Sequence record: PV730300.1
DNA from: a phage
Reading direction: 5' to 3' (one strand)
Length of the DNA: 64,000 nt
Every line of letters begins with the position of its first letter. Within the stretch, counting starts at the first letter, position 1. The notes below the pieces were generated by a model. The model made no database searches. It saw nothing but the letters and a program-made list of their open reading frames with translations, and was not told where the DNA came from. A program made the position numbers and the translations under genes. Below, in pieces: positions 3,509 through 60,049 of this stretch.

Positions 3509-3747
3509 GAAAATTTTTAATAGGTATGTTCTGTACATATCCTGATAATAAAGTCAGTTCTACGAAAGTCTGGAACGCTGTAGGCATGTCGGTTATGACA
3601 GGCATGTTTATCTTTTTAGGAATAGAAAAAGAAATTCCTGAATGGATGGGTTGGGCTTTTGTTTTCATGATAACTCCTTCTCGCCTCATGAAAAATCTTA
3701 TTGATTTACGCTGGGGCAGATCACAATCTACCAAAGAGGATGACTAA
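3505..3747 (+). CDS. small membrane protein (80 aa), holin-like candidate
   Basis: Two hydrophobic segments; translationally coupled to flanking genes; the antisense ORF 3411-3734 is judged spurious. Confidence 0.4.
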   Translation: MRKFLIGMFCTYPDNKVSSTKVWNAVGMSVMTGMFIFLGIEKEIPEWMGWAFVFMITPSRLMKNLIDLRWGRSQSTKEDD

Positions 3748-5234
3748 TGGACGAATATGGTTTGACAGATGCGGGATTTGTAATCCCGACTTTTGACGAT
3801 GTTTTAAACAACTACATGACAGCAGTAAAAAACACATTTGGTGCAGATGCAGCCACTTCGGAAGATACTGTGATCGGACAACTGTTTAGAATAATTGCAT
3901 ACACAGATTACACATTGTGGGAAGGTATGCAAGGTGTTTATAATACTCAAACACTGGATGGTGCAGAAGGTATTTATCTTGATGAAATCTTTTCTAAACG
4001 CGGTTTCTATCGAGCAGGTGCAGCAGCAAGTACAGGTTATGCATATGTTAAGAGTAATAACAAAGCAGCTTGGACTTATGAGCTAGGCACGGATATTTAC
4101 TTCAACTCTGATAGTGATATGAACTACTATGTTAGCACACCAACCATGTTGAATGCTAAGATTGCAGCTTATCAAATCTCTCGTGCTAATGCAACTGCTA
4201 CAGGTGTTCCAAATATTACTTTTTATGCACAAAGTGCGGTCGATGGAGGACTAAACAGCAAAACACTTGCACCTGGTTCTTCTACATTTATAACCGATCT
4301 TGAAACTTTTATCAAGGCAAATTTAACAGAAGCTGATCGTAGTCTTGTATTTTCTGATTCAGGTAACTTATCAATTGGTTTTACTTCTTTAACCAGTGAT
4401 ACTCCAGTGGGGCTGGTAACTCCTATTAAATTTTATGCTAGTGTTCCGGTTGGAACCAAGTGGAGTGAGATTCCGGTAGTTGCAGCAGAGAAAGGATACA
4501 ATCCTGTTGGTGTGGAGTCTATTACAGGGATATCTTCTACCTTTACAGGTTATCTTGACAGTGGTAACTTCTATTCATTTTCTCCTGGTCGAGATGTTGA
4601 GACAGACGCAGAATTCCGCTCTCGTTTCAATGACAACGTTGATGAAGCTAACGCAGGGACACGAGCAGCTATTGTGAAAGCTCTGTTGCTTACAGATGGT
4701 GTTACTAAGGTGAAGATTTATGATAACCCTACGTTACATGATCAAGAACACGCTCCAGCTATGACTTTCCAGACTATAGTTTATGGTGGCAGTGCAGAAG
4801 AAATTGCAAATGTTATCTATAAAACCAAACCAATCAACACTTTGACACACGGAACAACTAACATAACAGTTACAACAGAAGATGGAGGACAAGAAATTAT
4901 TCGCTTCTCCCCTGGTGCTTCTGCTACGTATTCTGTAAAACTTGTTTATCAAACTGTCAACGGAACAACTTTAAGTGGAACAGAAAAACAAAACATCGTA
5001 GAAGCTTTACAAAACCTGCAAGCTTACTTTGAGTTAGGTTCTTCAGTAACGAACGATCAAATCAAAGGTGTTATTTATGCAGCACTTGCTTTTGGACGCT
5101 TGACTTCTCTTCGTGTTTATGTTAAACTTAATACTGAGGATGACAGTAAATATACAGAGAATAATATAGTTCCTGCTTATAATGTTGTCCCTTCTTTTGA
5201 CCTTGATAACATTTCTTACGAGTATGGAGTGTAA
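3747..5234 (+). CDS. baseplate J-like protein (495 aa)
   Basis: N-terminal segment resembles baseplate-J family N-termini; followed by the small protein / fiber / fiber-assembly gene order seen in P2-like tail modules. Confidence 0.5.
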   Translation: MDEYGLTDAGFVIPTFDDVLNNYMTAVKNTFGADAATSEDTVIGQLFRIIAYTDYTLWEGMQGVYNTQTLDGAEGIYLDEIFSKRGFYRAGAAASTGYAYVKSNNKAAWTYELGTDIYFNSDSDMNYYVSTPTMLNAKIAAYQISRANATATGVPNITFYAQSAVDGGLNSKTLAPGSSTFITDLETFIKANLTEADRSLVFSDSGNLSIGFTSLTSDTPVGLVTPIKFYASVPVGTKWSEIPVVAAEKGYNPVGVESITGISSTFTGYLDSGNFYSFSPGRDVETDAEFRSRFNDNVDEANAGTRAAIVKALLLTDGVTKVKIYDNPTLHDQEHAPAMTFQTIVYGGSAEEIANVIYKTKPINTLTHGTTNITVTTEDGGQEIIRFSPGASATYSVKLVYQTVNGTTLSGTEKQNIVEALQNLQAYFELGSSVTNDQIKGVIYAALAFGRLTSLRVYVKLNTEDDSKYTENNIVPAYNVVPSFDLDNISYEYGV

Positions 5235-55395: not shown

Positions 55396-55584
55396 ATGGC
55401 ACGTTTAGCAGATAACCCTGTATTCTACCCCGTTCTTGATCTTTATGATGAATTGACATATGTTGTGGAGCGGTATAACTACAATGAAGATCTTTTGGAG
55501 ACAAACCTTAAAGTGGTCCTGATGAAAGCCTATCAGAAAGGGCAACGTGAAATTTTGGAGAGTATGAAAAATGCGAATAACTGA
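55396..55584 (+). CDS. hypothetical protein (62 aa, start at internal ATG)
   Basis: AAGGAGAAA RBS before ATG at 55396. Confidence 0.4.
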   Translation: MARLADNPVFYPVLDLYDELTYVVERYNYNEDLLETNLKVVLMKAYQKGQREILESMKNANN

Positions 55585-56113
55585 TGATTATGTATTCTTC
55601 TTTTCACATAAAGATGTGTTTAGTAATTGGTATATTGCACCCTTTACAGAAACCGAACCAGGTTACAATCAAACATTTAATTGTGTCGAACAATATATGA
55701 TGTGGCGTAAAGCTTTGCTTTTTAATGACCACAACACTGCACAGGCTATTCTGACTCATAGCTTGATACGGAAAGATGAGAAGATCCAAGCTTATTACAA
55801 ACGTATGGGTAGGGCAGTGTCGGATTTTGATAACAACGTATGGGAAGAGAACCGTGAGCGTATTGTTATGCGAGGTTTATGCTTGAAATATGTACAGAAT
55901 CCAGATTTGTATGCAGACTTACACCTTTACCAATATAAAACGTTTGTTGAAGCAAGCCCCTACGATAAGGTTTACGGAATTGGAATGGGGATGTATGAAC
56001 CAGGGGTGCTAAACCCTGCCACCTGGAAAGGGCAGAATCTTTTAGGCAAATATCATAATAAACTGATCGAAATACTTTTCCCAGACAAAATACCGCAAAG
56101 ACGATATTTGTGA
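55571..56113 (+). CDS. NADAR (YbiA-like) domain protein (180 aa)
   Basis: FFFSHKDVFSNWY, CVEQYMMWRKA, NVWEE and FVEASPYDKVYGIGMG match the conserved NADAR blocks. Confidence 0.6.
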   Translation: MRITDDYVFFFSHKDVFSNWYIAPFTETEPGYNQTFNCVEQYMMWRKALLFNDHNTAQAILTHSLIRKDEKIQAYYKRMGRAVSDFDNNVWEENRERIVMRGLCLKYVQNPDLYADLHLYQYKTFVEASPYDKVYGIGMGMYEPGVLNPATWKGQNLLGKYHNKLIEILFPDKIPQRRYL

Positions 56114-56167
56114 TATTTTAACTTTTTTCATTTTTAGAACAAAGGTGTCACTTTGTAGCACAGAAAT

Positions 56168-56207
56168 AAGGCTCCTACAGCACCGTAGAGAGCCTGTTAT
56201 TTTGTCT
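56168..56207 (+). terminator. rho-independent terminator closing the plus-strand block
   Basis: AGGCTC...GAGCCT extended hairpin with internal CTAC/GTAG pairing, followed by GTTATTTTGTCTT. Confidence 0.5.
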
Positions 56208-56355
56208 TATACAAACACTTATCTTTTTCAGTTTGCATCACTAGAATTAGATCTAGGTGGGTTCCTGAAGGTTTACCAATAAGATTAAAGGTTATCTCAA
56301 ATTACCACTACCTGTTATCTCAAAAAATCCCTCAAATTATTTAAACTTTTTAAGA

Positions 56356-56543
56356 ATTTACAAAAGTGAAAGTTGAAAACCAAAATTTAAAGTTTAGGAA
56401 AATTATCTTAAAATGTCAGATACAAAACAAAACTCAAAAGTCAAGGAAAATTTTAAAAATTTTGCGCGCCCACAGTATTTAAAGTTTTTTTGCTTTTACA
56501 AAAATGAAAGTACAAAAGCAAAATTTAAAGTTTACAAAAATTT
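56356..56543. repeat. two copies of a ~45-bp AT-rich direct repeat (about 56356-56405 and 56493-56543)
   Basis: acaaaagtgaaagttgaaaaccaaaatttaaagtttaggaaaatta vs acaaaaatgaaagtacaaaagcaaaatttaaagtttacaaaaattta. Confidence 0.6.
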
Positions 56544-56554
56544 ATGCAGATGGG

Positions 56555-56664
56555 AATGAGAAGAGTTCTCATATGGAAATGCAAATGATAATGATTCGCA
56601 TTTAGGTTTATAAATGAGATTGATTCTTATTTGATAAGGTAAATGATAAGCATTCTCATTTAGA
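56555..56664. repeat. four iteron-like imperfect palindromes, about 27-bp periodicity
   Basis: gaatgagaagagttctcatatgg / aaatgataatgattcgcatttagg / aaatgagattgattcttatttga / aaatgataagcattctcatttaga. Confidence 0.6.
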
Positions 56665-56895
56665 GAATGACGCGCAGGGGTGGTGTTTGTCTCGCGCTCC
56701 CGTGTCCCCTCGCCATGTAATAAGAATAACAGATCCAGCCAGGAAAGCAAGCGATTATTTTTATCTTTACATTTCTTTACAAATATATAGCGCCCAGCCT
56801 CCCGGCGATCGACCTTCCAACCGGTGCCCCTGGTATGTTAGCCCCGCCTTTACGCCGTGGGGGTGGCGCTTCCTCTTCTGTATGTAAAACAGTAT

Positions 56896-56935
56896 AAGCC
56901 CGATCCCTGGGCTTGTCAAGATTATTTTTTGTTTT
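56896..56935. terminator. bidirectional hairpin terminator in GC-rich block
   Basis: AAGCCC-gatccctg-GGGCTT hairpin; T-run downstream on plus strand, TGTTTT downstream on minus strand after the stop of 56922-57188. Confidence 0.4.
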
Positions 56936-57188
56936 CTTGCCAGGATAAGACACCTAACCAAAAATGCATATCGCCCCGCGCCCCTGGTGGGATCTTGCTT
57001 TCCCCGCCGCCACTGCAAGCCCATAAATAACCATCAGCGAACGGATCAAAGTTTTCTATCTCTTCCACCTTATGATCGCCCAGGTTGAGAACGGTTTCAA
57101 CCTTTAAGCCCGTTGCGCTTGCTACCTGGTGCACCGTGCCGCCTTGCCAGCCCAATGAGTGCATAAGGTGTAATGTAGTATTTGTCAT
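56922..57188 (-). CDS. small hypothetical protein (88 aa), divergent from the early array
   Basis: Coherent GC-rich codon usage; upstream TTGCTG-17-TATCAT, then GCGCC...GGCGC hairpin and AAAGGG RBS, a diverged version of the early cassette. Confidence 0.4.
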   Translation of the reverse strand: MTNTTLHLMHSLGWQGGTVHQVASATGLKVETVLNLGDHKVEEIENFDPFADGYLWACSGGGESKIPPGARGDMHFWLGVLSWQENKK

Positions 57189-57296
57189 GGTATCGCCCTT
57201 TCTTTGTTGTGCGCCCTGGTTGGCGCGGTAGAAAGATGATAGCCGTTTCCTTTATATACAGCAAGCAAAAAAGAAAATAAAAAAGATTAAAAAATG

Positions 57297-57325
57297 GTTG
57301 ACGTTCCCCAGGGGGTAGCGTATTA
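57297..57325 (+). promoter_or_regulatory. sigma70-like promoter with about 135-nt leader for first early-array gene
   Basis: TTGACG, 17-nt spacer containing CCCCAGGGGG, TATTAT. Confidence 0.4.
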
Positions 57326-57461
57326 TTCATCTTGTCGAGGGGGGCGAGGCACAACGACAATAAACAAAAGGCGGGCGCGATGCAGGACGGGCAAAGGTGA
57401 GGATCTCCATAATCCACCGTCCACCAACAAAAAACATCATTCATAACCTGGAATTAAGATC

Positions 57462-57659
57462 ATGGCAACATTGCACATAGTAGCGAAAGCAGGACAAATC
57501 AGCGTAATTGTAAACGGTTTTACTGAATTCAGTCATCCCCAGGATGATCATGAAACGGTTTTATCTTTTATTGATTCCTTGTTAGAAATGGGAGTCATTA
57601 CAGAAGATCAGCACGCTACAAAATGCAAGCGCGTTAATCAAATTGCAGAAATAGAATAA
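57462..57659 (+). CDS. early small protein (65 aa)
   Basis: ORF ends 6 nt before the next cassette -35. Confidence 0.5.
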   Translation: MATLHIVAKAGQISVIVNGFTEFSHPQDDHETVLSFIDSLLEMGVITEDQHATKCKRVNQIAEIE

Positions 57660-57665
57660 AAAGTA

Positions 57666-57746
57666 TTGACAACGTTTTTTAATCTGATAAGATGTATCAC
57701 ATAGGGCGGGAAATGGTTTCCCGCCCACAATAGAAGAGAAATCATC
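57666..57746 (+). promoter_or_regulatory. early promoter-hairpin-RBS cassette 1
   Basis: TTGACA-16-TAAGAT, GTATCACAT, GGGCGGGAAA-tgg-TTTCCCGCCC hairpin, AGAAGAGAAATC, ATG. Confidence 0.65.
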
Positions 57747-57899
57747 ATGGCATCATATAGCGCAACAATGATCGTAGCTGGCATCACTGGTAAACCTATG
57801 AGCGGTGGCGGATCTTTCGCTAATATCAATATCGACGGACGTTTATCCCTGGACGCAGCGATCGCCATTGCACGGGATACATTCAAAAAAAGAATGTAA
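57747..57899 (+). CDS. early small protein (50 aa as written; probably continues to 58020 in the +1 frame)
   Basis: ATG defined by cassette 1; ends just after an A7 run (57885-57891); +1 frame stays open to 58020, immediately before the next cassette. Confidence 0.45.
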   Translation: MASYSATMIVAGITGKPMSGGGSFANINIDGRLSLDAAIAIARDTFKKRM

Positions 57900-58023
57900 A
57901 TTCAACAAACAAAATTATCTCGGTTTTGCTATTGAAAAAACCGCGCGTTTTGTGGATTATAAAAGCCCGAAAATGGTTGATACTACACTAAAAGCGCAAG
58001 ATGTAGCGTTTTTGCTTTAAGGC

Positions 58024-58096
58024 TTGACGCTAACGAATAATTTGTTAATATGTTACATAACGCGGGAATAGTTCCCGCTGTTTGTAAGGTGATACA
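58024..58096 (+). promoter_or_regulatory. early promoter-hairpin-RBS cassette 2 (diverged)
   Basis: TTGACG-16-TAATAT, GTTACATAA, GCGGGAA-tag-TTCCCGC hairpin, ATG. Confidence 0.55.
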
Positions 58097-58354
58097 ATGT
58101 TTTACATCAAATTAAAAGGTCACGTTATCGCGTTCAAGGATAAAGCTTTTTACCGGTTAGCTAAATATGCTTTGATCCATCCTCATTATGTTTACATAAG
58201 GGGGCGCGATGAGATAAATATCTTTGATCAAACAACATGCGAAAACATCGAGATCCGCAAGGTTGGCGTACGTGATTATCGTACATCTTTCTACCCTTGC
58301 AAGGATTCCGCAAGTCTTTTTAAGGTGTGCCGATTATTGAAAAAAGGTGGGTAA
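58097..58354 (+). CDS. early small protein (85 aa)
   Basis: ORF defined by cassette 2. Confidence 0.5.
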   Translation: MFYIKLKGHVIAFKDKAFYRLAKYALIHPHYVYIRGRDEINIFDQTTCENIEIRKVGVRDYRTSFYPCKDSASLFKVCRLLKKGG

Positions 58355-58355
58355 T

Positions 58356-58925
58356 ATGGGCCGCGAATATGTGATCCAAACCTGGGTAAAACATGAAGCA
58401 GATGATCCGCGCATCATTCCCGATCATCTTGTCGATGAATCCACGGGCTATAGCGGGGAGCAAATAGGCAACAGATTAGCACGCAGTAACGGCAACGTAA
58501 AAGCGCGCTATGTGCGCCCTGGTTGGCTGGCGAATGGTACCGCTGATTTATCCAGTGCGGAAGATACGAGCGACGGCGCGAAAGATAATCCCTTGTACAA
58601 AATTGATCCGGCTTTTCGTGTCCTGGATGAATATCCCAGCAAGATAGCGGCGCTCGATCAGGCCCTGGAAAGTAAGCGCATCACCTGGACCGCTTACAAC
58701 ATGGCAAAAAACGTACTTGATGGTAAGCTGATCCAGGCTGAAAGGAAATTAGCCAAAATTGCAGCCATAGCCCAGGAGGAAGACGAGGAAACAACGGAAG
58801 AGGAAGAGTACGAAGAGATCCCGCCGTTGTTGTGTGTTGATGCTTTTCCTGATTATCAACCGACAGAGGAAGAAAAAAGGATCGCCCTAGAAAACTTTGA
58901 AAATATTATTGACAACATTTTTTAA
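58356..58925 (+). CDS. early protein (189 aa), acidic C-terminal region
   Basis: ATG 2 nt after upstream stop with GGTGGG RBS; C-terminal codons (IIDNIF) are the -35 and spacer of the next cassette. Confidence 0.5.
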   Translation: MGREYVIQTWVKHEADDPRIIPDHLVDESTGYSGEQIGNRLARSNGNVKARYVRPGWLANGTADLSSAEDTSDGAKDNPLYKIDPAFRVLDEYPSKIAALDQALESKRITWTAYNMAKNVLDGKLIQAERKLAKIAAIAQEEDEETTEEEEYEEIPPLLCVDAFPDYQPTEEEKRIALENFENIIDNIF

Positions 58926-58991
58926 TCTGATAAGATGTATCACATAGGGCGGCGGAATGGTCCACCGCTCAAAACAGAAGAGAGAAAAATC
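58909..58991 (+). promoter_or_regulatory. early promoter-hairpin-RBS cassette 3
   Basis: TTGACA-16-TAAGAT, GTATCACAT, GGCGG...CCGC hairpin with AATGG loop, AACAGAAGAGAGAAAAATC, ATG. Confidence 0.65.
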
Positions 58992-59237
58992 ATGAAACAC
59001 TTATCATCTATCACCAACCACAATGAAATTTTCGTTAATGAAAAAGGTTTCGCCTGGATTCAGTTAAAAGAGATGAAAAATAACCGTCATGTAACGGTTG
59101 TTCGTAAAATTAAAAGCAAGCCTTTTAGTAACTTCTCGATTGATACCGTGCGGATCAAGAATGAAGAATACTTGATCGATAGTCAAATCACTTGGAGCTT
59201 AACGGCATCAGCCGCCGCGCCATATTTCGCAAACTAA
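58992..59237 (+). CDS. early small protein (81 aa)
   Basis: ATG set by cassette; track ORF starts upstream inside the promoter and is over-extended. Confidence 0.5.
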   Translation: MKHLSSITNHNEIFVNEKGFAWIQLKEMKNNRHVTVVRKIKSKPFSNFSIDTVRIKNEEYLIDSQITWSLTASAAAPYFAN

Positions 59238-59247
59238 GAAAAAACGT

Positions 59248-59327
59248 TTGACACTGTTTAAAGTTCTGTTATAGTTTATCACGTAGGGCGGCAATGGTGC
59301 CGCCAACAATGAAAAAAGGTTATCATC
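59248..59327 (+). promoter_or_regulatory. early promoter-hairpin-RBS cassette 4
   Basis: TTGACA-16-TATAGT, TTATCACGT, GGCGGCA-atgg-TGCCGCC hairpin, AAAAAAGG, ATG. Confidence 0.6.
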
Positions 59328-59693
59328 ATGGCTATTAATATCAATGTTTCCTCTTATGCTACCCTGGCTGACACGGCTAAAATCGAATTATCTAGCATTG
59401 AGGCGGTGCATATTAGCGCCCGCCGCTGGTTTCAAAAGTCTTATGGTAATACTTATTTCTCTTTGATGGTTGACGTTGAGATCGGCGGTAAACTGATCGA
59501 GGTGGTTAACGTTCCGTTTCAATATGGCTATGGTGATCATTTTGATACCGTTGCCCTGGAAGAGTTTAGCAAGGTTGTTAATATGGAAGGTAAAGAGTTT
59601 TCGCGCGGCGCGTATCTTTCCCGTTTTTGCCGTGACAATGGGATCACTGTATACAGTCATGCAAGCGATGTTAAACGTAAAAAAGATCTATAA
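59328..59693 (+). CDS. early protein (121 aa)
   Basis: ORF defined by cassette 4. Confidence 0.5.
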   Translation: MAININVSSYATLADTAKIELSSIEAVHISARRWFQKSYGNTYFSLMVDVEIGGKLIEVVNVPFQYGYGDHFDTVALEEFSKVVNMEGKEFSRGAYLSRFCRDNGITVYSHASDVKRKKDL

Positions 59694-59699
59694 AAAGCA

Positions 59700-59781
59700 T
59701 TGACAGCACGAATAAAAAGAGTAAACTGTATTACATCAAGGCGGCGGAATGGTCCACCGCCTAACAAAGAGAGAAATAAAA
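59700..59781 (+). promoter_or_regulatory. early promoter-hairpin-RBS cassette 5
   Basis: TTGACA-16-TAAACT, GTATTACAT, GGCGG...CCGCC hairpin with AATGG loop, AACAAAGAGAGAAATAAAA, ATG. Confidence 0.6.
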
Positions 59782-59964
59782 ATGGCTAAATGCACTATCT
59801 GCAAAAAAGAAATAGTATTAGTTCCAAGTGCAAGTGAACGCGCCGCGCGTTTCGGTGGGAAAGCGTCAGACTACACGAAAATGTTTACTACTCATGCAGA
59901 TTGCCAGGTGGCAAAACGTTCACAAGAAAGCATAGAATTAATGCGTAAACTTTCCAAAAAATAA
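59782..59964 (+). CDS. early small cysteine-containing protein (60 aa)
   Basis: CTIC...HADC; ATG set by cassette. Confidence 0.5.
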   Translation: MAKCTICKKEIVLVPSASERAARFGGKASDYTKMFTTHADCQVAKRSQESIELMRKLSKK

Positions 59965-59966
59965 TA

Positions 59967-60049
59967 TTGACAAAGTATCTTATTACTATATAATGTTTTA
60001 CATAGGGCGCGGGAATAGTTCCCGCCCCACTGAAAAAGAGAGAAAAATC
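59967..60049 (+). promoter_or_regulatory. early promoter-hairpin-RBS cassette 6
   Basis: TTGACA-16-TATAAT, GTTTTACAT, GCGGGAA-tag-TTCCCGC hairpin, AAAAAGAGAGAAAAATC, ATG. Confidence 0.65.

What the first reader, a model, noticed from the sequence alone, without database searches (positions are those of the whole stretch)
56680..57461. Abrupt GC-rich block between the repeat region and the early array
Base composition switches sharply from very AT-rich to GC-rich at about 56680 and the higher GC persists into the early-gene array. The block holds a probable 88-aa minus-strand gene with a diverged promoter-hairpin-RBS layout, a bidirectional hairpin terminator, and a long structured leader before the first early gene. 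The change suggests a different evolutionary origin for the early region or a structured RNA element. Several overlapping track ORFs here look like by-products of GC-rich sequence.
Basis: seen in the sequence. Interest (0 to 1): 0.45.

Follow-up and report, generated by a model that had tools for sequence, protein, structure and literature searches.

The report
Unannotated structured RNA gene in phage
The GC-rich patch is real: it holds a small conserved phage protein gene and, beside it, an unannotated folded RNA gene with its own promoter that is found in more than 200 large phage genomes and matches no catalogued RNA family.

Summary
The window comes from a phAPEC8-like coliphage (Phapecoctavirus). 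The composition jump is confirmed. 56680-57461 is the GC-richest stretch of the 64 kb (0.52 against a mean of 0.395) and it abuts the most AT-rich stretch.

The block is a minus-strand unit that diverges from the early-gene array:
- a promoter, 5' hairpin and ribosome-binding site;
- a real 88-aa gene (PHROG 19316, fold unknown);
- a hairpin that sits inside the spacer of a second conserved sigma-70 promoter;
- a ~98-nt RNA, "RNA A" (56886..56789);
- a third promoter with a less certain element, B.

RNA A has a pseudoknot and a long hairpin. Compensatory changes support 11 of 22 tested pairs across 48 distinct sequences. It carries an invariant 18-nt motif, has no Rfam match, and is almost never annotated.

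The "long structured leader" is not supported: it folds worse than shuffled sequence and is missing in phAPEC8. The higher GC does not persist into the early array. A "different origin" is partly supported, because the block is a mosaic module, ~90-100% identical to phi92 while its flanks are ~45-70%. What RNA A does is unknown.

The parts
56680..57461 (.). GC-rich block as flagged (GC 0.486; sub-parts 0.512 / 0.491 / 0.458)
57236..57264 (-). Putative sigma-70 promoter of the 88-aa gene: -35 TTGCTG (57264..57259), 17-nt spacer, -10 TATCAT (57241..57236), with an A/T-rich stretch upstream
   Evidence: Read from the sequence; conserved in the alignment. Not among the sites listed by the consensus scan.
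57211..57226 (-). 5'-UTR hairpin GCGCC-AACCAG-GGCGC, followed by the RBS-like AAAGAAAGGG
56922..57188 (-). 88-aa gene 'p88' (PHROG 19316): conserved, all-alpha, five helices, function unknown
   Evidence: No fold match.
56896..56914 (-). GC hairpin AAGCCCAGGGAUCGGGCUU. It is terminator-like for p88 and also forms the spacer of promoter P_A.
   Evidence: 27 of 37 relatives have a stable hairpin in this spacer
56891..56919 (-). Promoter P_A: TTGACA-17-TATACT (11 of 12 matches)
   Evidence: A promoter scoring >=9/12 sits at the same place in 37 of 38 distinct relatives, against 4.6% of random 53-nt windows.
56789..56886 (-). RNA A, a structured ncRNA (predicted start ~56884). Parts: purine-rich 5' end; hairpin P1; pseudoknot between the P1 loop (CCCC) and downstream GGGG; long variable hairpin P2; invariant AAGGUNNAUCGCCGGNAG.
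   Evidence: Covariance model R1 scores 88 bits, E 2e-24, and finds a single copy in the window. Covariation. No Rfam match.
56764..56780 (-). Two GTAAAGA direct repeats 10 bp apart, conserved between RNA A and P_B
56723..56750 (-). Promoter P_B: TTGCTT-16-TATTCT. Relatives have stronger versions (TTGCAA-17-TATATT, TTGACC-17-GATAAT).
   Evidence: read from the alignments
56667..56718 (-). Element B: begins at the predicted start ACAUGGCG, ends at CGUCAU, and carries the conserved motif GAGACAAACACC
   Evidence: The closing stem is 88% paired but its covariation is not significant.
56555..56660 (.). Four 19-bp palindromic boxes at 29-bp phasing (consensus AATGAGAATGATTCTCATT), Fur-box-like. Context, outside the flagged block.
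   Evidence: Conserved downstream of B in relatives.
56333..56542 (.). Two 72-bp AT-rich direct repeats (82% identical). This is the AT-rich side of the composition jump.
57298..57326 (+). Promoter of the first early gene: TTGACG-17-TATTAT, divergent from the p88 promoter
57333..57461 (+). Long A-rich leader of the first early gene. It is not predicted to be structured, and ~87 nt of it are an indel among relatives.

Best explanation
The GC-rich block is a compact minus-strand transcription unit. It diverges from the first promoter of the plus-strand early-gene array and is read by the host sigma-70 RNA polymerase.

In order along the minus strand it holds:
1. a promoter, 5' hairpin and RBS;
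2. the 88-aa gene p88, a conserved small all-alpha protein of unknown function;
3. a GC hairpin that probably ends the p88 transcript and also forms the spacer of a second promoter, P_A;
4. RNA A, a roughly 100-nt non-coding RNA that folds into a hairpin-type pseudoknot plus a long hairpin of variable length, with an invariant 18-nt 3' motif;
5. two GTAAAGA repeats;
6. a third promoter, P_B, with a GC-rich start-proximal element B. Transcription from P_B runs into an array of palindromic boxes and AT-rich repeats.

The high GC has two sources. One is nucleotide-level constraint on folded RNA (RNA A is 64% GC). The other is a p88 gene with unusually high GC3. The block is also a mosaic module that has moved between phage genera.

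Shown: the gene, the conserved promoters, and the base-pair covariation of RNA A.
Inferred: that RNA A is transcribed from the minus strand, that it is a stand-alone early RNA, and that its invariant unpaired nucleotides contact a conserved partner. I take a conserved host or phage factor as the most likely partner. An action in cis on the adjacent repeat region is the second possibility.
For: **Composition.**

**p88 is coding and conserved.**

**RNA A is more conserved than its surroundings.**
- 56800-56920 is 88-100% identical even in Av-05 (L011), whose p88 protein is only 70% identical.
- nhmmer and the covariance model find it in 55 loci (48 distinct sequences) from 115-153-kb phage contigs.
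- blastn finds it in 227 GenBank phage records of Stephanstirmvirinae and Vequintavirinae. Hosts include Klebsiella, Salmonella, Cronobacter, Pectobacterium, Proteus and Serratia. Most listed rows have no annotated feature under the match.
- It is also present in Aeromonas phages.

**Structure of RNA A.**
- On the 48 distinct sequences, 11 of 22 tested pairs change on both sides. The covariation score is 0.165 against at most 0.073 when partners are slid, and 0 of 500 shuffles reach it.
- 7 of the 8 P2 pairs are compensatory, and one pair shows AU, CG, GC and UA.
- The pseudoknot pair 29-44 is CG in 36 sequences and AU in 11.
- A structure-blind MAFFT alignment gives the same picture: 9 of 16 pairs, 0.204 against at most 0.061.
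- One homolog replaces P2 with a UUCG mini-hairpin.

**RNA A is not coding.** Homopolymer indels of 1-3 nt occur inside the conserved core.

**RNA A has its own promoter.** 37 of 38 relatives have one at the same position.

**RNA A is independent of p88.**
- 18 loci have RNA A without p88, and 5 have p88 without RNA A.
- In CR8 and SSE121, RNA A sits alone in a ~1-kb gene-free gap, antisense to both flanking gene sets.

**RNA A looks like a discrete gene in Aeromonas phages.** Read by eye, a terminator-like hairpin follows ~30 nt after it.
Against: - There are no transcript data, so no start or end has been observed.
- The strand cannot be read from the pair statistics: 4 G.U cells against 9 A.C cells. 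The strand assignment rests on the promoters and the Aeromonas hairpins.
- RNA A of this window is not more stable than shuffled sequence (z -0.55).
- P1 covaries only in the Aeromonas lineage.
- The proposed 3' hairpin P3 has no compensatory changes.
- No clear terminator follows RNA A in this window.
- The structure of element B is not statistically supported.
- The covariation alignments come from related phages, so inherited changes are counted more than once.
- I found no target, ligand or partner. A search for complements of the invariant motif in the window gave chance-level results.
Confidence: 0.7

Rival explanations
1. The block is part of a transcription-activated replication origin. 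G-rich transcripts from P_A and P_B run into the AT-rich repeats and the box array. There they open the DNA or prime synthesis, as at the T7 primary origin, T4 oriF/oriG or ColE1 RNA II.
For: - The order RNA A, GTAAAGA x2, element B, palindromic boxes, AT-rich DNA is conserved in the enterobacterial-phage relatives, and always points toward the AT-rich side.
- There are four boxes at exact 29-bp phasing and two 72-bp AT-rich repeats.
- The region holds the lowest GC of the window.
- Plus-strand GC skew across 56750-57199 is -0.17 to -0.20, so minus-strand transcripts here are G-rich.
- The region is a ~1-1.3-kb gene-free gap in all relatives checked.
- The rV5 genome paper reports a 'non-coding' box and could not locate the origin (PMC3606486).
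Against: - Cumulative GC skew shows no inflection beyond what gene orientation explains.
- In Aeromonas phages RNA A is followed by a terminator-like hairpin and has no boxes or element B. That fits a discrete RNA gene better than a primer.
- A pseudoknot with an invariant loop is not needed for R-loop priming.
- I identified no initiator gene.
Confidence: 0.2
2. The GC-richness simply marks horizontally acquired foreign DNA, with no special function beyond the 88-aa gene.
For: - The block is 78-100% identical to phi92-type phages while their flanks are 43-73%.
- The C-terminal half of p88 is replaced in near-identical relatives.
- p88 has GC3 of 0.52 against 0.30-0.43 in its immediate neighbours.
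Against: - The non-coding part is the best conserved part, and it carries compensatory base-pair changes and a conserved promoter.
- RNA A persists in lineages that lack p88 altogether.
- Mosaic exchange and function are not mutually exclusive.
Confidence: 0.1
3. The conserved GC-rich sequence acts as DNA rather than RNA. It could be a packaging or terminase site, a single-strand initiation signal, or a protein-binding site near a genome end.
For: - Several GenBank records of this family start or end within a few kb of this locus. ECGD1 ends inside p88, LTH01 ends inside RNA A, and phi1_175008 has RNA A at 447-625.
- The pair statistics do not discriminate the strand. This would also fit a fold of single-stranded DNA.
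Against: - Record ends in this family are mostly arbitrary or copied from reference genomes.
- A sigma-70 promoter is conserved at a fixed distance upstream.
- Terminator-like hairpins follow RNA A in the Aeromonas phages.
- Sites bound by a protein dimer conserve sequence rather than covary.
Confidence: 0.07
4. One reading: the structured element is a long cis-regulatory leader of the first early gene.
For: The predicted promoter at 57298-57326 lies ~128 nt upstream of the ATG at 57462.
Against: - The leader folds worse than 193 of 200 shuffles.
- About 87 nt of it are missing in phAPEC8, nepoznato and SF1-1, which keep the same gene.
- It has no Rfam match.
Confidence: 0.03

Closest known systems
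Stand-alone phage-encoded small RNAs with their own sigma-70 promoter (for example lambda OOP, P22 sar, P1/P7 C4; comparison from my own knowledge)
   Same: A short non-coding transcript unit with a host-type promoter, sitting in a regulatory intergenic region next to early genes.
   Different: Those are antisense regulators with known targets and simple hairpins. RNA A has a pseudoknot, a long variable hairpin and an invariant 18-nt motif. I found no antisense target. The C4 clan model gave only a 13.5-bit chance hit elsewhere.
Orphan conserved RNA motifs found by comparative genomics and catalogued in Rfam (comparison from my own knowledge)
   Same: Defined only by conservation and covariation. 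The helices vary while the unpaired nucleotides are invariant. Found in phage or metagenomic DNA.
   Different: RNA A matches none of the 4227 Rfam 15 families, either in this window or in eight diverged homologs.
Origin-proximal promoter transcripts: T7 primary origin, T4 oriF/oriG, ColE1 RNA II (comparison from my own knowledge)
   Same: One or more promoters followed by G-rich transcribed DNA that leads into an AT-rich repeat region.
   Different: No replication data exist for this region. RNA A appears as a terminated gene in Aeromonas phages. No initiator or RNase H site is known.
HK022 put RNAs, promoter-proximal cis-acting antiterminator RNAs (comparison from my own knowledge)
   Same: A folded RNA immediately downstream of an early promoter, present as two tandem promoter-RNA units.
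   Different: put is two simple stem-loops with no pseudoknot. I could show neither sequence similarity nor a downstream terminator-and-gene arrangement.
E. coli Fur boxes (19-bp consensus GATAATGATAATCATTATC)
   Same: The adjacent palindromic boxes match 14-15 of 19 positions. Two of them match the 7-1-7 core with 2 mismatches.
   Different: Thirteen sites in the window reach 14 of 19, so the match is not specific. The boxes' own consensus and their 29-bp phasing are more distinctive. Binding is untested.

Membership tests
Any Rfam 15 RNA family | Score at or near the family's gathering threshold in cmscan | tested here: not met
   Within 56680-57461, no match with E <= 10 on either strand of the window. 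In eight diverged homolog loci, no match to RNA A with E <= 1.
Structured non-coding RNA (general) | Base pairs maintained by compensatory changes across homologs, beyond controls | tested here: met
   11 of 22 pairs change on both sides. The score is 0.165 against at most 0.073 for slid partners, with 0 of 500 shuffles reaching it. A structure-blind alignment gives the same result.
Structured non-coding RNA (general) | Not protein-coding | tested here: met
   1-3-nt homopolymer indels occur inside the conserved core among close relatives. No conserved ORF is present.
H-type (hairpin-loop) pseudoknot | Loop of a hairpin pairs with a downstream segment, and both helices are supported | tested here: inconclusive
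   In the loop-downstream helix, pair 29-44 is CG in 36 and AU in 11 sequences, and pair 30-43 shows AU, UA and GC. P1 covaries only in the Aeromonas lineage (2 of 4 pairs). In the main group the fourth pseudoknot pair is an A.G mismatch.
Stand-alone bacterial-type sRNA gene | Own promoter | tested here: met
   TTGACA-17-TATACT. A promoter scoring >=9/12 is found at the same position in 37 of 38 relatives, against 4.6% of random windows. This is consensus evidence only.
Stand-alone bacterial-type sRNA gene | Intrinsic terminator at the 3' end | tested here: inconclusive
   No canonical terminator follows RNA A in this window. Terminator-like hairpins with U-rich tails follow it in the Aeromonas phage homologs, read by eye.
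Stand-alone bacterial-type sRNA gene | Detected transcript of defined size | not testable with these tools
   No expression data are available.
Riboswitch / cis-regulatory leader | Sits upstream of, and on the same strand as, a regulated gene | tested here: not met
   No minus-strand ORF lies downstream of RNA A or B. The next gene (NADAR, 55571-56113) is convergent. The plus-strand leader is unstructured.
Intrinsic (rho-independent) terminator, for hairpin 56896-56914 | GC-rich stem followed directly by a U tract | tested here: inconclusive
   The stem is present and kept by compensatory changes. On both strands the U run starts several nt after the stem.
Helix-turn-helix DNA-binding proteins (considered for p88) | Fold or profile similarity to HTH domains | tested here: not met
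Fur box | Match to the 19-bp consensus well above background | tested here: inconclusive
   The best boxes match 14-15 of 19, but 13 sites in the window reach 14 of 19. Fur binding cannot be tested here.
Iteron / transcription-activated replication origin | Repeated sites plus an AT-rich region plus an inward-pointing promoter | tested here: met
   These features are necessary but not sufficient.
Iteron / transcription-activated replication origin | Replication actually starts there | not testable with these tools
   Needs marker-frequency or 2D-gel data.

The most novel reading that the evidence does not exclude
RNA A is a previously undescribed family of pseudoknotted RNA that host RNA polymerase makes at the very start of infection. 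It is conserved with an invariant 18-nt motif across large virulent phages of Enterobacteria and Aeromonas. On this reading it acts through a new mechanism. It might bind and redirect a conserved host machine, or sense a small molecule. Or, together with element B and the Fur-like box array, it might switch on the phage replication origin.
Probability: 0.4. Interest if true: 0.8.

Novelty: new variant of a known kind. Interest (0 to 1): 0.6.

Why it matters
Phages of the rV5, phi92, phAPEC8 and PVP-SE1 groups are widely isolated for therapy and biocontrol. Their ~1-kb "non-coding" gap has been left blank or filled with spurious ORFs.

A promoter-driven, covariation-supported RNA lies in that gap in more than 200 genomes. 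It is more conserved than the neighbouring proteins and has no Rfam family. That makes it a concrete target that is cheap to test:
- a Northern blot or cappable-seq;
- a deletion;
- compensatory mutants.

It could reveal an RNA-based host-takeover or replication-control step. It also corrects annotation, for example phAPEC8_00257. Finally, it supplies a covariance model that can be used to annotate these phages.

Tried and rejected
- **Rfam.** cmscan at permissive thresholds on the window and on eight diverged homologs found nothing.
- **tRNA/tmRNA.** ARAGORN found none in the window.
- **Large multi-repeat hits of the p88 profile.** They are leucine-rich-repeat proteins, so they reflect composition and pattern bias rather than homology.
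- **Alternative helix GGCG:CGCC (3' motif), chosen by RNAalifold.** It shows no covariation and is broken in the Aeromonas lineage, where P1 is compensated.
- **Closing 5'/3' helix of RNA A.** No consistent register appears across lineages (reading).
- **3' hairpin P3.** It has no compensatory changes and is 68% paired.
- **Element B closing stem.** It is paired in 88% of cells, but its covariation is no better than shuffles.
- **Strand from G.U against A.C counts.** Uninformative.
- **Antisense targets of the invariant motif in the window.** Chance level.
- **Bacterial-genome scan.** Of 45 pattern hits, only one (a 4-kb MAG contig) is a true RNA A. The rest are chance matches in GC-rich genomes.
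- **Pattern-only viral loci.** They are coding DNA.
- **A motif copy beside a tRNA-like T-arm in L072.** ARAGORN does not call it a tRNA, and I did not pursue it.
- **Literature.** Searches on Phapecoctavirus, Stephanstirmvirinae, rV5, PVP-SE1 and Fur boxes in phages found no description of this RNA.

Full report
**Source and setting.** The window is a phAPEC8-like myovirus (Phapecoctavirus, Stephanstirmvirinae). Region 56000-58000 is 98.5% identical to Escherichia phage EF1-1 and ~95% to phAPEC8. The flagged block lies between the end of a plus-strand operon and the first gene of a plus-strand array of small early genes. The operon's last gene is a NADAR-domain protein at 55571-56113. The first early gene is at 57462-57659. 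All relatives examined share this layout.

**The observation.** The composition jump is real.
- In 300-bp windows GC rises from 0.26 (56300-56599) to 0.50 (56750-57199).
- At every scale tried (200-780 bp) the block is the GC maximum of the 64 kb. At 500 bp it is 0.518 against mean 0.395, sd 0.028.
- It abuts the GC minimum, 0.247 at 56331.
- It does not persist. GC is 0.38-0.42 again by 57500 and 57462-60000 averages 0.414. A second peak at 58250-58850 lies inside a 192-aa gene.

**The 88-aa gene.** The minus-strand ORF 57188..56922 is a genuine gene.
- It matches PHROG 19316 end to end at E 1e-58.
- tblastn finds it in 152 phage records down to 35-45% identity.
- Database searches give 21 close clusters and 209 representatives at E <= 1e-3. 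The long multi-stretch hits among them are leucine-rich-repeat artefacts.
- Variable alignment columns fall 22/15/38 by codon position.
- AlphaFold gives a confident five-helix model, pLDDT 94.
- Upstream it has TTGCTG-17-TATCAT, a GCGCC/GGCGC hairpin and a purine-rich RBS.

**Conservation pattern.** Sliding identity against ten relatives shows two things.
- phi92-type phages have a NADAR protein only 59% identical and flanks 43-73% identical. They are nevertheless 78-100% identical across 56680-57340.
- Relatives that are ~98% identical in the flanks (anhysbys, nepoznato, SF1-1) carry a different C-terminal half of p88, 22-83% identical over 56920-57100.

The block is therefore a mosaic, exchangeable module. 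Together with a GC3 of 0.52, this gives partial support to "a different origin". The best-conserved piece, however, is non-coding. 56800-56920 stays 88-92% identical in Av-05 (L011), where the p88 protein is only 70% identical.

**A second promoter and RNA A.**
- Directly after the p88 stop lies TTGACA-17-TATACT (56919..56891), 11 of 12 matches on the minus strand.
- In relatives the hairpin sequence changes but keeps pairing. A stable spacer hairpin occurs in 27 of 37 distinct contexts.
- A promoter scoring >=9/12 sits at the same distance upstream in 37 of 38, against 4.6% of random 53-nt windows.
- Downstream lies a ~100-nt element that nhmmer and a covariance model (R1) find in GenBank, IMG/VR and metagenome loci. 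It occurs once in this window, at 56886..56789, with 88 bits and E 2e-24.
- By blastn it is present in 227 GenBank phage records of Stephanstirmvirinae and Vequintavirinae with many hosts. Most listed rows have nothing annotated under it.
- It is also present in Aeromonas phages.
- A scan of bacterial genomes gave one true hit, on a 4-kb MAG contig.
- Close relatives differ by 1-3-nt homopolymer indels inside the core, which excludes a conserved ORF. This argues that phAPEC8_00257, annotated over this stretch, is spurious.

**Structure of RNA A.** Reading the alignments suggests four parts:
- a short hairpin P1 (CGCC/GGCG);
- a pseudoknot between its loop (CCCC) and a downstream GGGG;
- a long hairpin P2 with a variable tip;
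- an invariant AAGGUNNAUCGCCGGNAG.

The counts on 48 distinct sequences are as follows.
- 81% of cells are paired and 11 of 22 pairs change on both sides.
- The covariation score is 0.165, against at most 0.073 for slid partners. No shuffle out of 500 reaches it.
- 7 of 8 P2 pairs are compensatory. One pair is A-U in 35 and G-C in 12 sequences. Another shows AU, CG, GC and UA.
- The pseudoknot pair 29-44 is CG in 36 and AU in 11.

The structure-blind MAFFT alignment gives the same result, so model fitting does not explain it. One homolog replaces P2 by a UUCG mini-hairpin, as expected for a peripheral stem.

The weaker points:
- P1 covaries only in the Aeromonas lineage.
- The alternative helix preferred by RNAalifold has no covariation.
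- A 3' hairpin is unsupported.
- The single sequence is not unusually stable, z -0.55.
- G.U against A.C counts do not identify the strand. The minus strand is inferred from the conserved promoter and from terminator-like hairpins that follow RNA A in Aeromonas phages.

No Rfam 15 family matches, either here or in eight diverged homologs.

**Independence from p88.** 18 loci have RNA A with no p88 neighbour, and 5 have p88 without RNA A. In one locus RNA A lies on the other side of p88. In Cronobacter phage CR8 and Salmonella phage SSE121, RNA A lies alone in a ~1-1.2-kb gene-free gap, antisense to both flanking gene sets and back to back with the first early gene.

**Downstream of RNA A.** In most relatives the order continues as follows.
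- Two GTAAAGA repeats 10 bp apart.
- A third promoter. It is TTGCTT-16-TATTCT here and closer to consensus elsewhere.
- Element B (56718..56667), which starts at the predicted transcription start and contains the conserved motif GAGACAAACACC.

B's closing stem is paired in 88% of cells, but its covariation is no better than shuffles, so its fold is unproven. After B come four 19-bp palindromes at exact 29-bp phasing. They are unique in the window (6 strand-hits against 0.06 expected) and resemble Fur boxes at 14-15 of 19 positions, a level that 13 sites in the window reach. Two 72-bp AT-rich repeats follow.

**The leader.** From the plus-strand promoter at 57298-57326 the leader to the ATG at 57462 is ~128 nt. 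It folds worse than 193 of 200 shuffles, z +1.68. About 87 nt of it are missing in phAPEC8, nepoznato and SF1-1. It is long but not structured.

**Interpretation.** The GC-rich block is a minus-strand, host-polymerase-read unit: p88, then RNA A, then element B. It diverges from the early array. Its GC-richness comes mainly from folded-RNA constraint (RNA A is 64% GC) and from a p88 gene with high GC3, inside a module that recombines between genera.

The function of RNA A is not established. Variable helices around invariant unpaired nucleotides, conservation across phages of many hosts, and a discrete promoter-and-terminator gene in Aeromonas phages all point to a stand-alone RNA that contacts a conserved partner. 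The main rival is that RNA A and B serve the adjacent repeat region as origin-activating or priming transcripts. The fixed order and orientation toward the AT-rich boxes support this rival, and the rV5 genome paper notes that no origin has been located (PMC3606486). I found no antisense target in the window and no paper describing the element.

**Verdict.** The most valuable content is an unannotated, covariation-supported RNA family that can now be tested directly.

Noticed in passing
window 56555-56660: Four 19-bp palindromic boxes (consensus AATGAGAATGATTCTCATT) at exact 29-bp phasing. They are unique in the 64 kb and conserved downstream of element B in most relatives. They resemble E. coli Fur boxes (14-15 of 19), but that score is not specific in this AT-rich genome.
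   Followed up: partly
window 56333-56404 and 56471-56542: A 72-bp AT-rich direct repeat (82% identical, 138 bp apart), with a shorter third copy at 56424-56452. It looks like iterons or a DNA-unwinding region.
   Followed up: partly
window 56764-56780 (minus strand): Two GTAAAGA repeats one helical turn apart, conserved between RNA A and the next promoter in nearly all enterobacterial-phage relatives. They could be a protein-binding site or the 3' tail of the RNA.
   Followed up: no
window 56920-57100; loci L002, L005, L006: The C-terminal half of the 88-aa protein is replaced by unrelated or diverged sequence in phages whose flanks are ~98% identical. The N-terminal 36 residues stay conserved. 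This looks like a domain swap within a tiny gene.
   Followed up: partly
L001 (phAPEC8) 3687-4028, equivalent to window ~56687-57030 plus strand: The annotated 114-aa CDS phAPEC8_00257 overlies element B, RNA A and part of p88 on the opposite strand. Frame-breaking homopolymer indels in relatives suggest it is spurious. Several other records annotate 'hypothetical protein' here.
   Followed up: partly
window 57343-57431: An ~87-nt insertion/deletion in the leader of the first early gene. It is present here and in EF1-1, anhysbys and phi92, and absent in phAPEC8, nepoznato and SF1-1.
   Followed up: partly
window 56896-56914 and 57304-57320: GC-rich hairpin-forming sequences sit inside the 17-nt spacers of two strong promoters: P_A, and the plus-strand early promoter (CCCCAGGGGG). 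In the L075 group the hairpin loop is the -35 element itself. This may insulate or regulate divergent transcription.
   Followed up: partly
window 58250-58850: A second GC peak (0.49-0.53) lies inside a 192-aa gene with an acidic C-terminal part (GC3 0.49). High GC is therefore not unique to the flagged block.
   Followed up: no
L021 1697-1796 and L073 163-262 (Aeromonas-phage-like contigs): In these homologs of RNA A, about 47 nt forming three small hairpins are inserted between P1 and the pseudoknot partner. The covariance model misaligns their 5' half.
   Followed up: no
L072 ~3990-4100 (minus strand), 148-kb IMG/VR contig: The 18-nt motif AAGGTAAATCGCCGGCAG occurs just upstream of a tRNA-like T-arm (GGGTTCGACTCCC), next to tRNA-Met and tRNA-His genes. 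ARAGORN does not call it a tRNA. It may be chance.
   Followed up: partly
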